From positions 1-40,415 of the forward strand of contig JBDLUO010000057.1 in the NCBI GenBank assembly GCA_039805285.1: a stretch of DNA of 40,415 bases, given 5' to 3'. The notes under the pieces are model-generated. The model was not told the origin of the DNA, searched no databases, and saw only the letters and a list, made by a program, of their open reading frames with translations. Origin of the DNA: Bacteroidota bacterium (GTDB lineage Bacteria; Bacteroidota; Bacteroidia; Chitinophagales; Chitinophagaceae). The position numbers and the translations under genes are program-made. Shown in pieces: positions 796-26,826 of this stretch. Each line of letters starts with the position of its first letter. Position 1 is the stretch's first letter.

Positions 796-1536
796 TTATT
801 TATTATGGAAGTCATCAAGGCTTTCACCAATTGTATAACCGGAAATCAACAAAGGCAGCGTATCAGGAGCCGTTTCAAAAAAAGACAATTTTCCCAATTC
901 AATTTCTTTATCCAGTTCAGGTTTGGATAAAAATTGATGGGCAACATCAAGGTAGGTGCCATTTAATAAATGCCTGAATTCATGCTGAAAAATTACGGCA
1001 GCAAAACCGTCCAGTCTACCAGTAAGCGTTTCTCCTGTTTCACTTTGTGCCTGATATTCAATCCATTCATATGTGGCAACATTTCCTCTTTTTTCACCGT
1101 GTGCACTCAAGCATCCATGCCAGAAATTTTTCTTTCCAGGCGATACATTGGTAATTACCGGATTGATAAAGATTTGTTTGGGAACCGGACCCAACACCTT
1201 GTAACGTGGATTATCGGCCTTCGCTTCGATGATGAAAATCTGCAACCTTTTTCCGATCTGATTGGCCGCAATACCTACTCCCGATTTTTTTGTCATAACC
1301 GCATACATACTATTTATGAATGCGCTCAAGATCGGTGTATTGAATTCATCTTTTGTTATTTTTCGCGGAGGCAAGTACAATGCACTTTTTTCTCTTCCGT
1401 TTTGATTCGCTGGTATTTGTTGAAGCACTTCCATTTCATCTTTTGAAACATTCAGCGTCAACGATTCATCGATTGTGTTACAACTTTTTATTCCCATTGC
1501 AGTTATTAGTGTTAGAATAAGGATAGCGTTTTGCAT
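796..1536 (-). CDS. Atypical peptide deformylase-family protein with a possible lipoprotein signal
   Basis: PDF motifs GVGIAANQIG, HGCLS (canonical EGCLS) and QHEFRH (canonical QHExDH). The likely start is ATG 1536 (MQNAILILTLITAMGIKS-C); the track's TTG at 1575 is an alternative. A -7 box TATGTTTG lies at 1631-1638. Confidence 0.8.
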   Translation of the reverse strand: MQNAILILTLITAMGIKSCNTIDESLTLNVSKDEMEVLQQIPANQNGREKSALYLPPRKITKDEFNTPILSAFINSMYAVMTKKSGVGIAANQIGKRLQIFIIEAKADNPRYKVLGPVPKQIFINPVITNVSPGKKNFWHGCLSAHGEKRGNVATYEWIEYQAQSETGETLTGRLDGFAAVIFQHEFRHLLNGTYLDVAHQFLSKPELDKEIELGKLSFFETAPDTLPLLISGYTIGESLDDFHNK

Positions 1537-1790
1537 GTTGGTATACGAAAGTGTTTGTTTGATATTTGAAGACAATTATCGATTGGCTTGTTTTCCAATC
1601 GTTAGATATGTCGTTGAATCTTTATTGCGTCAAACATAGAAATTATCTTTGAATTGGATGGATCTTTTTTCCGAAGCTTTGGGGATTAATTAATAAAGTG
1701 TTCTATTTTTTATAACTCAACTTTAAAAAATACATAAAATGATAGCTGTTTACATTTCTGACCTGTCGCATTGAATATATCAATTCTCAT

Positions 1791-4109
1791 CTAGGTAATA
1801 CCCATCATTTCCGAAACAATCGATGCCACTTCTTTAGCAGCATCATTAGGTAAATATGCCGTATCACTAATGCCAGAAACAACGCGTGTAATGTCGTGAT
1901 CGACCTTGCCACGAGAATGCCAATTTGATGCTGATGTAGCAGTAATATAGACTGAAAAATTGCGGTGTATCGTGCCAGGACGCTCGCCTATTATATGTAT
2001 TACACTGTGCTTTTTCAATTGTTCCTTTCCAAAAAGATGCTCTCCAATTTCGTACCCTGCTCGTACACGTCCGTTGCGAATCACAATAGGCGATTCAGCA
2101 ATAGATAAATTCTGTGAAGTCAGATTTTGGTAAAGAGAAGGAAGAAATGTTTCGAGATGTCCTTCATCCATAAGCGATTGGGCATTCAAACCTTCCGAAA
2201 TGATGATCTGCACATCTGGTAAACTCTTTTTGAACTTTTTACGTAACCCTTGAATTACCCTTACGCTTTCTTGTGAAATGCGCTCTCCGCTAGCAGGATG
2301 ATAAACATAGTCAATTCTGTTCGTCGACTTAGACTGTATCACTACAGCATTTCTTATGGACTTCAAATAAGGCGTCTCCCATTCTGTCCATAAACAATAT
2401 TTGGCGTCTTTGTATAGTGCCTGTATTTCGCGATCGAGTGAAGGTTGCAATTGCCAGATCTTTTCTCCAAATCCTTCAGCAATAGGAACTCCACGTTTAC
2501 GAACCCGCTCAATGGCAGCTTTGCCCTCCAACAATATTGTTTCATCGCTGCGTAAATCGCCTTTTGCCCTACAATAGCGCAAATAGACTTGGGTGGGTTG
2601 ACCAAAAAAAGCTGTTGGTTTATTGTCTGCGCCAATCACATCGATGCGCTTAAAAAACGCCCACATCGCATCATTTACTTTGTAACCAAATTGCTCACGC
2701 ACCCGAACGTGGTCGGCAAATGAAGTGGTAAGATAGCTGAGCATTGGATCATTTTTCGTAGGCAGCGCCATCAGATAGGCTGGATTCGCTGGCATAACCT
2801 GATCGATGCACCAATCCAAATCATCCAGACTCACATCCATATGAAGCGTTGTGCAAATGTCGAGTCCAATGGTAAGTCCATGAAGCTTGCCCATTACAAG
2901 ATCTTCGAGGCAACAACGTACGAGTTGTTCCTTGGTACGAAATACTTCTGGACCAATGAAACCTGCTACATTATTGAGAAATACCCAGGGTTCCGTATTG
3001 TTATTTTTTTGCTTGATGATGCGTTGCTTCAATGCACGTAAGAAGCCGTATTTGCGTGACTCGTGTACAACCATATCAAACCCCTCACCGTGTCCGTTAG
3101 TGGCATCGGCACCTTGTCCTGTTTCTGCATAGAGTCCATACAGATTTCCTTTTCGGGCATCGGCATGCGCCTTCATTTTTTCTATGGTTACATCAAAGGT
3201 TTGATTGGCCTTCACAGTACCAGCCAGACTCTGAAACCAAACTCCAGTTGTACCTGGTTGAACCCCTTCTACTTTTGATTGTATATCTATATGTGAAAGC
3301 ACACAATTGGGCATTGTTTTTTCCAACTGAAAGGTCGTTAGCAAATCATGTAATGCTGCTTCGATACGAGCAACCATGACCGAGTCACTGGAAACAGGGT
3401 TTGTTCCAAGTACCAAATCTCCCACCCCATAAGACCAGGCATCAAATACCTGCCAAACAATATCTTCGATGTTGTCGGTCGGCGAGTTTGGTTGCACTCT
3501 TGCACTAACGTATCCTTTTGCGCCAATGTTACTGTTTGGTAGTGGATTAAAGACTTTGCTGCTGATGGTTATGAGTTCGTTATTGGACAAAAGTTTCACG
3601 ACCATAGCAATAAGATCACTTGAAAGCGATGGCATGATGCGCTTTATGGCATCTTCATCAGATTCCAAGAGGAAGTTTTTTAATTGACGGAAGTTCATAT
3701 CAATAACCTCTTTTTCAAATACGGTAGTGTTTTGAATGAGGTCATATTGTTCGTCTTTAAAAAGCGGATGAGCTAGAACGTCTGATAGTTTTGTGTTGGA
3801 AATAAGTCCGCGTGCCATTATTCTGGCAGACTCGTTTGCCGCTGCAATACCCGCAATTTCATCGCCTTCTTTAAATTCATTTGCAGCACCAACCAACTGT
3901 CTGTATAATTTTATGTCAAATCCGCCCTTAATCCGACGGATGTAAGTAAAAATATCTTCCTCATTAAGCGCGTCCTCAAAATCAATCCGCTGATGTGTTG
4001 GAAAGACTGGCATACCAAAAACTTGAGATCTGGTAAGCATCATGGAGATGCTTGCAACTCCCAATTGAAGCAGGAAATTTCGGCGTGGGTTTGGGTTTGA
4101 AATGGTCAT
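1791..4109 (-). CDS. eutBC: Fused ethanolamine ammonia-lyase large and small subunits (EutB-EutC) with a twin-arginine signal peptide
   Basis: EutB motifs RVQPNSPTD, GDLVLGTNP, FQSLAGT, ETGQG, GFIGPE, GLDICTTLH, MLSYLTTSFAD. EutC motifs EGLNA, GRVRAG, IGERPG. N-terminus PRRNFLL is followed by a hydrophobic stretch. A -7 box TACATTTG lies at 4150-4157. Confidence 0.9.
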   Translation of the reverse strand: MTISNPNPRRNFLLQLGVASISMMLTRSQVFGMPVFPTHQRIDFEDALNEEDIFTYIRRIKGGFDIKLYRQLVGAANEFKEGDEIAGIAAANESARIMARGLISNTKLSDVLAHPLFKDEQYDLIQNTTVFEKEVIDMNFRQLKNFLLESDEDAIKRIMPSLSSDLIAMVVKLLSNNELITISSKVFNPLPNSNIGAKGYVSARVQPNSPTDNIEDIVWQVFDAWSYGVGDLVLGTNPVSSDSVMVARIEAALHDLLTTFQLEKTMPNCVLSHIDIQSKVEGVQPGTTGVWFQSLAGTVKANQTFDVTIEKMKAHADARKGNLYGLYAETGQGADATNGHGEGFDMVVHESRKYGFLRALKQRIIKQKNNNTEPWVFLNNVAGFIGPEVFRTKEQLVRCCLEDLVMGKLHGLTIGLDICTTLHMDVSLDDLDWCIDQVMPANPAYLMALPTKNDPMLSYLTTSFADHVRVREQFGYKVNDAMWAFFKRIDVIGADNKPTAFFGQPTQVYLRYCRAKGDLRSDETILLEGKAAIERVRKRGVPIAEGFGEKIWQLQPSLDREIQALYKDAKYCLWTEWETPYLKSIRNAVVIQSKSTNRIDYVYHPASGERISQESVRVIQGLRKKFKKSLPDVQIIISEGLNAQSLMDEGHLETFLPSLYQNLTSQNLSIAESPIVIRNGRVRAGYEIGEHLFGKEQLKKHSVIHIIGERPGTIHRNFSVYITATSASNWHSRGKVDHDITRVVSGISDTAYLPNDAAKEVASIVSEMMGIT

Positions 4110-4364
4110 ATGCTGCGGTCCTGATTGATTTGTTCTTCTTTGTTTACAACAAATGTAGTTTTATTCACTTTCTATGTGTGCTTTTTGTTTTTTGGGGGTA
4201 CTAAAGATTTGCCGTTTCACCAAGTGATTGAGCTTTAGCATTTAAATAGTTATCTCAATTGATGTAGAGAACTAAATACTGATCGACCTAGAATTTATCT
4301 GTAAAGCACTCAACCGCAACTTTTTATTTATTCAGTGTTAATAGTTGTTTGTTTTACTATCACA

Positions 4365-23436: not shown

Positions 23437-26400
23437 TTACATGTTTCTACGGTATTGTCCTCCCACTTGATACAATGCCTGGGTGATTTGTCCTAAACTG
23501 CAGTATTTAACCGTTTCCATCAACGCTTCAAAAATATTTCCATCCTCAATCGCTACCTGTTGCAACTTTCTTAGCATTGTTTCTGCCTGCGCCTGATGTC
23601 TTTGTTTAAAAGTTTCCAACGTGGCAATCTGAGCCTCTTTTTCTTCGGTTGTAGATCGAATCACTTCAGAAGGTATGATGGTTGGAGAACCTTTCTTGCT
23701 TAAAAAAGTATTTACGCCAACAATTGGATATTCTCCCGTATGCTTTAAGGTTTCATAATGTAAACTCTCCTCCTGAATCTTATTGCGCTGATACATTCTT
23801 TCCATAGCACCCAAAACACCACCACGCTCCGTGATGCGATTGAATTCCGTCATCACCGCCTCTTCTACCAGATCCGTCAATTCCTCGATCAAGAATGAAC
23901 CCTGATTCGGATTTTCATTTTTAGCTGTTCCCAACTCTCTGTTGATGATCAACTGTATGGCCATGGCTCTGCGCACGCTCTCTTCGGTAGGTGTAGTGAT
24001 GGCTTCATCATATGCATTCGTATGCAGCGAATTGCAATTGTCGTAAATCGCATACAATGCCTGCAAAGTCGTTCTGATGTCGTTGAAATCAATCTCTTGC
24101 GCATGCAGACTTCTTCCGCTGGTTTGGATGTGATATTTGAGCTTCTGGCTTCTTGAATTCCCTTTGTATTTGAGTTTCATGGCTTTGGCCCAAATTCTTC
24201 TAGCAACCCTTCCTATCACGCTGTATTCAGGATCCATGCCGTTGCTGAAAAAGAAAGACAGATTCGGAGCGAAATCATTGATGTTCATTCCCCTGCTCAA
24301 ATAATATTCAACATAGGTAAATCCATTGGCGAGGGTAAAAGCTAGCTGTGTTATCGGATTGGCTCCTGCTTCAGCAATGTGGTAGCCACTTATACTTACA
24401 CTGTAAAAATTTTGGACATTTTGGTCGATGAAATATTGTTGAACATCTCCCATCAATTTTAAAGCAAACTCGGTAGAAAAGATGCAGGTATTTTGCGCCT
24501 GGTCTTCTTTCAATATGTCTGCCTGAACGGTGCCCCTTACTGTGCTCAATGCCTTTGCACGAATTTCTTTATAAACATCCTCAGGCAAAACATCAGCTCC
24601 GCTGAGTCCGAGCAATCGAAGTCCGAGTCCGTCATTGCCCTCAGGCAATTGTCCTTCGAGGTTTCCGTTTAATGGTTTTACCATTGTTCCATCTGCCCCG
24701 ATATATTTCGGAAGCTGCTCTAGATTGTATTTCGATTCAATAAGGGCATTAACAGTTTCTCTAAGATTATTTTCTATGATGTACTTCTCGCATTGTTGAT
24801 CAATCGCGGCATTCATGAAAAAAGCAAGGATAATCGGAGCGGGTCCGTTAATCGTCATGCTCACCGATGTTTTCGGATCGCAAAGATCAAATCCGCTATA
24901 TAGTTTTTTAGCATCATCTACGGTTGCAATGCTAACGCCGCTGTTTCCAACTTTTCCGTAAATATCCGGACGCCAAGCGGGATCTTCTCCGTAGAGTGTA
25001 ACGCTATCAAATGCAGTACTGAGGCGCTTTGCAGGCTGACCTTGACTCACATAATGGAATCTTCTGTTGGTTCTTTCTGGCCCACCTTCTCCGGCAAACA
25101 TTCGGGTTGGATCTTCTCCTTCACGCTTCAACGGAAAAACGCCCGCGGTAAATGGAAATTCACCGGGCACATTTTCTTGCATCTGCCAGGTAAGTAAATC
25201 GCCCCAGTCTTTAAACTTAGGAAGATACACTTTTGAAAGTCTTGTTCCAGAAAGGGTATGGTGGGTTAAAGGTTGTTTGATGGTTTTATCTCTAACTACA
25301 AATTCGTAATGATCTGCAGCATATTTTTCTTTTACGTTTTCCCATCCGGTAATCATGTTTTTACATTCGTTAGAAATGGCTTGCATGATTTCATCCGCTT
25401 TACGCTTCAATTCTGTTTGAAGTGCTGGGGATGCTTCTTGCAAATGCTCTAAAACACCGTTGAGTTGATACCATTGAGAAGCAAGGTTAGATTGTTCGCT
25501 TACCCATTGGTTGTATTGTTTTGCAGATTCCGATATTTCTGCCAGATATCTAACTCTTGATGGAGGAATTACGGTTGTATTCTGACCCGATTTAAGAATC
25601 GTTTCACCAACCGAAGCTTGGATGGAGAATGAATCCGGAAATTTTTGATTGATTTTTTTCATCAAGATGTCGAAGAGTGTATTTACCCCCGAATCATTGA
25701 ATTGAGCGGCTATCGTTCCTACCACTGGCAGCTCCTCATCCTTGGCATCCCACAATCCATGGTTTCTTTTGTACTGCTTTTTTACATCGTGCAAGGCATC
25801 TAATGCGCCTGCCTTGTCGAATTTATTCAAACAAATTACATCCGCATAATCGAGCATGTTTATTTTTTCGAGTTGCGAAGGAGCTCCATATTCAGGCGTC
25901 ATAACGTACATGCTTACCTGACAATAATCAAGTATTGAAGCGTCACTCTGTCCCACACCTGCGCTTTCCAAAATAATAAGATCAAATGATTCTTGCTTGC
26001 AGATATCTATGGCATCCTGAACATATTTGCTTAGTGCTTTGTCGCTTTCGCGTGTAGCCAGACTGCGCATGTAGGCTCTTGACGAAGAAATGGCATTCAT
26101 TCGAATTCTGTCTCCTAGTAAAGCTCCGCCTGTTTTTTTCTTGGAAGGATCTACGGAGATGACTGCTATGGTTTTATCTTCAAATCGATTTAAAAATCTT
26201 CTTACAATTTCATCCGTTACCGATGATTTACCAGCACCACCTGTTCCTGTGATGCCCAAAACGGGCACTACAGAAGGACTGTCTGATTGGACCGCAGAAA
26301 AACTACCATTCTCTGCTAGTGTGATATGTCTGGCTATTTTGCGGATGTCTTTCTTTTCGTCGATAGACATTTTTCCTGTACCAATTGGAAGCTCCAATAA

Positions 26401-26826
26401 CGAATAATCACATTGTTTTACTACATCTTCAATCATTCCTTCTAATCCCATCGTTCTACCATCATCTGGGGAATAAATTCTGCTGATGCCATACGCATGG
26501 AGTTCATCAATTTCTGTTGGCAAAATGGTTCCGCCACCACCGCCGAAAATTTTTATATGTCCGCAACCACTTTCATCTAAAAGGTCTTTCATGTATTTGA
26601 AAAACTCCACATGACCACCCTGATAGCTGGTGATGGCAATGCCCTGAACATCCTCTTCTATGGCACACTCAACAATATCAGCCACACTTTGGTTGTGACC
26701 AAGATGTATAATCTCTGCTCCTTTACTCTGAAGGATTCTGCGCATGATGTTGATGGCAGCATCATGGCCATCAAATAAAGCCGCAGCGGTTACGATTCTT
26801 ACTTTGTTTTGGGTAGAAAAAGACAT
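23437..26826 (-). CDS. icmF: Fused isobutyryl-CoA mutase / MeaB-like GTPase (AdoCbl-dependent)
   Basis: B12-binding DGHDAAIN, P-loop [13 protein letters not shown], and mutase motifs [41 protein letters not shown]. 1129 aa. Confidence 0.93.

What the first reader, a model, noticed from the sequence alone, without database searches (positions are those of the whole stretch)
1791..4109. Single-chain EutB-EutC ethanolamine ammonia-lyase with a Tat export signal
Seen: both subunits are in one 772-aa ORF, preceded by MTISNPNP-RRNFLL-QLGVASISMML-TRSQVFG. Residues in the motif positions of the EutB substrate contacts appear retained (R and Q in RVQPN, N in TNP, E in ETGQG, D in LDIC, Y in SYL). No eutA, eutH, aldehyde dehydrogenase or microcompartment genes are nearby. 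Established: characterised EALs are cytoplasmic two-subunit AdoCbl radical enzymes, and Tat exports folded, cofactor-loaded proteins. Inference: a periplasmic B12 radical enzyme that releases ammonia from ethanolamine while keeping acetaldehyde outside the cytoplasm. Fusion would allow export on one signal. This would be an alternative to the Eut microcompartment.
Basis: partly seen in the sequence, partly recalled or inferred. Interest (0 to 1): 0.8.

Follow-up and report, generated by a model that had tools for sequence, protein, structure and literature searches.

The report
Exported single-chain B12 ethanolamine lyase
This gene fuses the two subunits of the vitamin-B12 enzyme ethanolamine ammonia-lyase behind a conserved export-type leader, so a radical enzyme class studied only inside cells likely works in the periplasm here, probably after being loaded with its cofactor in the cytoplasm.

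Summary
Observation confirmed. ORF 1791-4109 (-), 772 aa, is EutB (68-499) plus EutC (562-769) with EutB active-site columns invariant in 182 of 182 close relatives and a confident EAL-like model. The twin-arginine leader is conserved (109 of 117 full-length top hits; 38 add a lipoprotein Cys). A sister clade has plain Sec leaders (107 of 114), and 0 of 39 canonical EutB have any leader. Swapping of export routes is the best evidence for export. Route tracks partner: Sec forms travel with a 260-aa membrane protein (19 of 20 genomes), not found in 52 Tat carriers, which suggests Tat forms leave cofactor-loaded. The fusion is in print (Pelobacter genome paper); export was not found in eight literature searches. 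This scan flagged the same family on other DNA at least eight times. No localisation or activity was measured, and the window's own leader misses the TIGR01409 model.

The parts
1791..4109 (-). Fused eutBC gene, 772 aa
   Evidence: AlphaFold model mean pLDDT 91.9, pTM 0.89
4014..4109 (-). Predicted Tat signal peptide, residues 1-32; cleavage after V-F-G32 is inferred by eye
   Evidence: sequence; pLDDT under 50 at 1-5 and 22-37; identity to 79 relatives is 74% at residues 9-13 against 15% at 1-8 and 18% at 34-50
4068..4085 (-). Twin-arginine motif RRNFLL (residues 9-14)
   Evidence: twin-basic motif in 109 of 117 top hits and 56 of 63 genome loci by regex
3924..3989 (-). Conserved mature N-terminal element (residues 41-62, EDIF-Y-R), where the Sec-type relatives begin their mature chain
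   Evidence: 71% identity at 51-62; high pLDDT; Sec leaders end about ten residues before this motif
2613..3908 (-). EutB domain (residues 68-499) with R204, Q206, N237, S294, E329, D417, M447, Y459
   Evidence: PF06751; columns invariant in 182 of 182; Foldseek 3abo_A target TM 0.87, rmsd 2.4
2427..2612 (-). Structured helical linker (residues 500-561) joining the two subunits; no EutC-type N-terminal stretch of about 30 profile positions
   Evidence: helices H505-515 and H522-538 at pLDDT above 90; EutC profile match starts at position 32
1803..2426 (-). EutC domain (residues 562-769)
   Evidence: PF05985; Foldseek 3abo_B / 7xrm_B target TM 0.73
4106..4168 (-). Out-of-frame 20-codon remnant (GTG start) of the longer n-region of relatives; its stop overlaps the ATG at 4109
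   Evidence: DNA alignment; two contigs of a second study show no indel here (run X3)

Best explanation
The gene encodes a one-chain ethanolamine ammonia-lyase that likely folds and binds adenosylcobalamin in the cytoplasm, is likely exported by Tat, and is predicted to split ethanolamine into acetaldehyde and ammonia in the periplasm. Shown: fusion, EAL fold, invariant EutB active-site columns, conserved leader, host tatA, tatC, PduO-type adenosyltransferase and a riboswitch-controlled BtuB-like receptor. Inferred: export, cleavage near G32, cofactor loading before export, and the substrate. Most likely purpose (inferred, weakest step): a one-gene bypass of ethanolamine uptake. Ethanolamine freed outside the inner membrane (for example by the PafA phosphatase this genome encodes) becomes acetaldehyde and ammonia, which can cross membranes with no transporter. 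That would explain why the gene moves alone between lineages with no permease, regulator, reactivase or shell.
For: Domains and fold. Active-site columns invariant in 182 of 182 near relatives (the residue roles are recalled, except R160, whose role appears in a reference title). Leader: 109 of 117 and 56 of 63 with a twin-basic motif; lipobox Cys at a fixed position (21 from the first Arg) in 38 of 117; Sec-type leader in 107 of 114 of the sister clade, with SxA, CxA or AxA before the mature start in 103 of 114; none in 39 of 39 canonical EutB. Leader-bearing group is one clade (UFBoot 100), and the Tat forms of G176 and S. meliloti nest inside the Sec clade (98, 99, 100), so the route has switched while a leader was kept. 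The n-region extension is broken by stops or frameshifts in 5 of 21 close loci and in the window, upstream of a second Met, while the RR motif stays in frame. Host machinery: tatC, tatA (125), PduO (45), cobalamin riboswitch before a TonB receptor whose best model is TIGR01779, below cut-off on a cut ORF (46, 53, 80), IcmF in the window (80), PafA (107); TatC in 46 of 50 and PduO in 43 of 50 carriers (103, 102). The 260-aa membrane partner follows Sec forms (19 of 20 genomes) and was not found in G176, G000 or 50 other Tat carriers. Precedent for Tat export of a cobalamin enzyme: RdhA (PMC6095959, passages).
Against: No experiment on location or activity. The window's leader does not match TIGR01409; 7 of 25 RR-type leaders are listed for it and 3 pass its cut-off. 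23 of 117 have RK, not RR, and one member (P0063/L025) has a decayed leader. No SignalP or TatP was available. E. coli/Salmonella EAL is an [(EutB-EutC)2]3 oligomer (reference title), probably too large for Tat if assembled first; the oligomeric state here is unknown. EutC scores far below its NCBIfam equivalog cut-off, and I did not map cobalamin contacts in EutC. No conserved neighbours tie the Tat form to ethanolamine, and no GDPD-family gene was found in this genome. Periplasmic repair of damaged cofactor by an ATPase is not possible. The partner correlation rests on related genomes and one query, and G178 (Sec-type leader) lacks the partner.
Confidence: 0.62

Rival explanations
1. Exported AdoCbl radical eliminase for another amino alcohol (2-aminopropanol, serinol, N-methylethanolamine or similar) or with broad specificity.
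For: Only about 30% identical to characterised EutB, on a long branch. Duplicated copies in Pelobacter were suggested to differ in substrate (PMC3543383, passages). Sec-type modules include a PotD-like binding protein. PDB entry 5YSR shows EAL with 2-amino-1-propanol (title).
Against: All examined substrate-contact columns equal E. coli EutB in 182 of 182.
Confidence: 0.13
2. One reading: exported EAL kept for nitrogen, with acetaldehyde held or lost outside as a substitute for the microcompartment.
For: Stand-alone gene, no aldehyde dehydrogenase nearby; freshwater oligotroph-type hosts. Acinetobacter uses ethanolamine mainly as nitrogen source (PMC9426561).
Against: Amt not found in this genome and not enriched in carriers (25 of 50 vs 20 of 40). 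The inner membrane is a poor barrier to acetaldehyde (established knowledge). Shell-free cytoplasmic-side EAL already works (PMC9426561).
Confidence: 0.12
3. Exported as apoprotein that captures or stores adenosylcobalamin in the periplasm, with catalysis secondary.
For: Sec-type relatives must load cofactor outside and lie beside BtuCDF-like, MoxR/DUF58 and cobalamin synthesis genes. One Tat-lipoprotein member (P0131) has a remodelled active site.
Against: Substrate-side residues are invariant; no cobalamin riboswitch in the window; no B12 uptake genes among 134 neighbours of mostly Tat-type loci, apart from one TonB receptor of unknown cargo and one MerR/B12-binding-domain regulator.
Confidence: 0.07
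4. The leader is not used for export: the enzyme stays cytoplasmic or tethered to the inner face of the membrane.
For: TIGR01409 misses this leader; Acinetobacter EAL localises to the membrane without a signal (PMC9426561); AdoCbl supply and repair are cytoplasmic.
Against: Three classical leader types (Tat, Tat-lipoprotein, Sec) occupy the same position; basic N-terminus then hydrophobic stretch points the chain outwards; leaderless members exist, so the leader is not structural.
Confidence: 0.06

Closest known systems
Ethanolamine ammonia-lyase EutB/EutC of E. coli, Salmonella and Listeria (PDB 3ABO, 7XRM, 2QEZ)
   Same: Both domains, fold (target TM 0.87 and 0.73), active-site columns.
   Different: Two chains, no leader, microcompartment and EutA reactivase in enterics; here one chain, export-type leader, stand-alone gene, about 30% identity.
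Fused eutBC1/eutBC2 of Pelobacter (Syntrophotalea) carbinolicus (PMC3543383)
   Same: Described there as an unusual fusion of the two subunits, with no eutA. A named EAL record of this species (P0399, ABA87751.1, 753 aa) belongs to the same clade.
   Different: That record begins with a Sec-type leader, which the passages read do not mention. It lies in a module with a binding protein, a membrane protein and cobalamin genes; the window's gene has a Tat leader and no module.
Acinetobacter baumannii EutBC (PMC9426561)
   Same: Works without microcompartment or EutA; host salvages cobamide and has a PduO-type adenosyltransferase.
   Different: Two chains, no predicted N-terminal signal on EutC, co-transcribed aldehyde dehydrogenase.
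Reductive dehalogenases RdhA/PceA (PMC6095959)
   Same: Cobalamin enzyme exported pre-folded by Tat.
   Different: Different fold and chemistry (reduction with Fe-S clusters, not Co-C homolysis of adenosylcobalamin); has an RdhB anchor.

Membership tests
Ethanolamine ammonia-lyase (EutBC) | EutB TIM-barrel subunit | tested here: met
   PF06751 440.6 bits; NF011649 567 vs cut-off 554; Foldseek 3abo_A
Ethanolamine ammonia-lyase (EutBC) | EutC cobalamin-binding subunit | tested here: met
   PF05985 105.5 bits vs 25.8; Foldseek 3abo_B TM 0.73. NCBIfam equivalog cut-off not reached (77 vs 230)
Ethanolamine ammonia-lyase (EutBC) | Substrate and adenosyl contacts R160, Q162, N193, S247, E287, D362, Y404 (roles recalled) | tested here: met
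   identical in the query and in 182 of 182 near relatives
Ethanolamine ammonia-lyase (EutBC) | AdoCbl-dependent conversion of ethanolamine to acetaldehyde and ammonia | not testable with these tools
   needs an enzyme assay
Ethanolamine ammonia-lyase (EutBC) | [(EutB-EutC)2]3 oligomer | not tested
   only a monomer was modelled
Microcompartment-associated Eut system | Shell genes, eutA, eutH in the genome | tested here: not met
   not found in a 95% complete genome
Tat substrates | RRxFL motif, moderately hydrophobic h-region, conserved in relatives | tested here: met
Tat substrates | Match to curated Tat signal model TIGR01409 | tested here: not met
   no match for the window's leader; 3 of 25 RR-type relatives pass the cut-off
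Tat substrates | Host encodes TatA and TatC | tested here: met
   TatC in 46 of 50 carriers
Tat substrates | Tat-dependent export and processing | not testable with these tools
   needs fractionation and mutants

The most novel reading that the evidence does not exclude
A multi-phylum clade of adenosylcobalamin radical enzymes works outside the cytoplasm and has solved cofactor delivery twice: stand-alone Tat forms (this gene) leave the cytoplasm as holoenzymes, while Sec forms fold in the periplasm and are supplied by a dedicated, uncharacterised 260-aa membrane protein that exports or loads adenosylcobalamin.
Probability: 0.3. Interest if true: 0.88.

Novelty: new variant of a known kind. 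Interest (0 to 1): 0.7.

Why it matters
Adenosylcobalamin radical enzymes are treated as cytoplasmic because their cofactor is made and repaired with ATP (own knowledge; no exported example turned up in the searches). A periplasmic one would show that Co-C radical chemistry can run outside the cytoplasm, would change how ethanolamine turnover is read in lake, marine and sediment genomes, and makes the open question of how cobamides cross the inner membrane outwards (PMC13532332 reports excretion with no known mechanism) testable through a named candidate protein. Tractable hosts exist: several Sinorhizobium meliloti and S. fredii strains and Echinicola pacifica.

Tried and rejected
Rfam scan of the window: no match, so no cobalamin riboswitch at the gene. 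Promoter and terminator scan: counts equal to shuffles. Conserved neighbours: none across 68 loci beyond local synteny among close kin; 134 flanking proteins (one per cluster, nearest genes only) gave no eut family. Sequencing runs: no RNA holder listed. The EutA hit is FtsA. CobS not found, so the host is probably a B12 scavenger. Downstream starts at M23, M24, M33 rejected as ancestral: M33 is not conserved and the RR motif is; 4 of 117 database proteins are called from such internal starts. Assembly error at the upstream GTG: not supported by X3 contigs; X4 differs by one base and has lost that start. Fold of the 260-aa partner: model pLDDT 71.7, no Pfam or PDB sequence match, Foldseek no E under 0.001, VIA best Z 9.1 to a designed helical bundle; MFS likeness is only a lead (atlas scores under 0.8). 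Tsoy 2009 and Shibata 2010 were not held, so their content is not checked. PMC10703272 has no mention of ethanolamine or cobalamin. A word search of earlier scan notes for a refutation gave nothing. No complex prediction was run: a two-copy EutB job would pass or fail on likeness to solved EAL. Branch support printed along the re-rooted path is shifted; only the values are used.

Full report
Observation. Pfam finds EutB at 68-499 and EutC at 562-769. NCBIfam passes EutB (567 vs 554) but not the EutC equivalog (77 vs 230). An AlphaFold model from a 120-row alignment is confident (mean pLDDT 91.9, pTM 0.89) except at residues 1-5 and 22-37, and matches E. coli EAL chains A and B best (target TM 0.87 and 0.73). 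Against E. coli EutB taken from NC_000913.3, R160, Q162, N193, F245, S247, E287, V326, F329, D362, M392 and Y404 are identical in the query and in 182 of 182 near relatives. The roles of these residues are recalled; the structure paper was not held, and only R160 is backed by a reference title seen.

The leader is real. Of 120 top hits, 3 partial ones were dropped; 109 of 117 carry a twin-basic motif 30-62 residues before the conserved EDxF element (84 RR, 23 RK, 1 RQ, 1 RN). Of the 8 misses, 4 are called from an internal start, 3 show the motif by eye and 1 has CR. Of 68 genome loci, 5 partial or split ones were dropped; 56 of 63 pass, 6 more show RR by eye and one is Sec-type. These loci come from Bacteroidota, Planctomycetota, Myxococcota, Acidobacteriota, Halieaceae and a deltaproteobacterium; Sinorhizobium plasmids add Alphaproteobacteria. 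Identity peaks at RRxFL (74%) between variable flanks (15% and 18%). 38 of 117 add a lipobox-like Cys at one fixed position. My rule fires on 13 of 1759 ORF starts of this genome and 4 of 5036 internal windows, and on 0 of 39 canonical EutB. Against this, TIGR01409 misses the window's leader and passes only 3 of 25 RR-type leaders, one member has a decayed leader (P0063/L025), and no dedicated predictor was available.

Start codon. Many relatives have a 20-residue longer n-region. In the window its GTG lies 59 nt upstream, out of frame; in 5 of 21 close loci it is broken by a stop or frameshift ahead of a second Met, while the RR motif stays in frame. Contigs of a second study show the same spacing. 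ATG 4109 is therefore the likely start, with RR at residues 9-10.

Route switching. A search from locus L049 returned 120 relatives; 107 of the 114 full-length ones have a hydrophobic leader without RR, and none has RRxF in its first 35 residues. In an IQ-TREE of 55 EutB domains (421 columns), the fused superclade has UFBoot 100, the leader-bearing group 100, and the Tat forms of G176 and S. meliloti nest inside the Sec clade (98, 99, 100). Tat, Tat-lipoprotein and Sec leaders replacing one another at one position is hard to explain except by export. Leaderless fusions branch below the leader-bearing group, and other fusions sit among canonical EutB; 14 of 15 such fusions show no leader. Fusion came first.

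Context. The gene stands alone: no shared neighbours across lineages. It is patchy: 0 of 24 same-genus genomes, 2 of 301 in the family counting this one, 4 of 400 in the phylum, all four with RR or RK leaders, yet 81-85% identical copies occur in MAGs labelled Flavobacteriales and other Bacteroidota. It lies between stretches of 32% GC. This fits horizontal spread (inference). The host has tatA, tatC, a PduO-type adenosyltransferase, a cobalamin riboswitch before a BtuB-like receptor, IcmF and PafA; EutH, BMC, EutA, Amt, GDPD and CobS were not found (genome 95% complete). Among 50 of the 63 carrier genomes, TatC is in 46, PduO in 43 and Amt in 25; Amt is in 20 of 40 non-carrier relatives, so nitrogen scavenging gets no support from co-occurrence.

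Cofactor supply. In the class of G001, 22 of 251 genomes hold this clade. Leaders were read in 21: 20 Sec-type, 1 Tat (G176). A 260-aa helical membrane protein lies directly downstream in 19 of the 20 Sec-type genomes and in the one whose leader was not seen; it was not found in G176, G178, 14 genomes with canonical EutB, 5 with leaderless fusions, 20 without EutB, 50 Tat carriers or G000. The Sec module also has a PotD-like binding protein, a TorF-like porin, and at L049 BtuCDF-like and MoxR/DUF58 genes. These genomes are kin and one query was used, so this is a lead: Sec forms may need a partner to get AdoCbl outside, while Tat forms would carry it out themselves. The partner could equally move ethanolamine or a product; its fold stayed unresolved.

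Mechanism, with odds. Export about 0.9; AdoCbl-dependent ethanolamine cleavage about 0.8; loading before Tat export about 0.75; all together about 0.6. The purpose is least certain.

Literature. PMC3543383 (passages; supplement 3, part 1 of 2) reports the fusion in Pelobacter carbinolicus, the absence of eutA and the gene order; its three mentions of signal peptides concern other proteins. A named EAL record of that species starts with a Sec-type leader. PMC9426561 (passages): EAL without shell or EutA. PMC6095959 (passages): Tat export of RdhA. PMC13532332 (passages): cobamide excretion, mechanism unknown. PMC2667541 (passages): only MetH, MCM and RNR II then known in eukaryotes. PMC5821096 and PMC10440813 (passages) say nothing on export. 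PMC9746703 (one supplement row): an 836-aa EAL detected by 5 peptides in Paratrimastix. Searches listed no paper reporting an exported EAL; most listed papers were seen only as listings. Subscription papers (among them Tsoy 2009) and bioRxiv supplements could not be seen and may bear on novelty.

Earlier scan notes. Eight notes on other genomes reach the same reading. They are not independent evidence. One gave the S. meliloti lead, which I confirmed.

Verdict. A real, widespread variant of a known enzyme with a location not found in print; untested at the bench. New variant of a known kind, interest 0.7.

Noticed in passing
window 796-1575 (-); L016:8444-9205, L017, L018: Peptide-deformylase-like protein (PF01327; below NCBIfam cut-offs) with a hydrophobic, lipoprotein-like N-terminus, directly downstream of the fused eutBC here and in three Flavobacteriaceae-type loci. 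An exported deformylase would be unusual.
   Followed up: partly
proteins P0125, P0126, P0127, P0133: The fused clade has eukaryotic members (Paratrimastix, Anaeramoeba, Andalucia, Blastocladiella). The Paratrimastix protein starts at the mature N-terminus with no leader, and an EAL of the same length is in a published proteome table.
   Followed up: partly
proteins P0131 / P0393: Tat-lipoprotein member with a remodelled active site (E. coli numbering Q162R, N193D, S247R, F329A, Y404L): possible new substrate or non-catalytic B12 binder.
   Followed up: no
protein P0224; L131, L132: A separate leaderless fused clade; P0224 has Ala at the D362 column, suggesting another substrate.
   Followed up: no
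L049:8479-9261 and 27 further matches: Uncharacterised 260-aa membrane protein that tracks Sec-type EutBC; 315 database hits, no Pfam; candidate cobamide or amine transporter.
   Followed up: partly
proteins P0123, P0182: P0123 has a long N-terminal extension resembling C2 domains (by eye) fused to EutBC; P0182 has an N-terminus resembling an organelle transit peptide (by eye).
   Followed up: no
G000:C10:9401-10156: A superoxide-dismutase-like protein (by eye) with a strong RR leader, among 13 ORFs that pass the RR rule.
   Followed up: no
L003:1565-3981: The fused gene is split into two ORFs in this MAG.
   Followed up: no
window 23437-26826 (-): IcmF (NF045497 above cut-off), a second AdoCbl enzyme in the same window.
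   Followed up: yes
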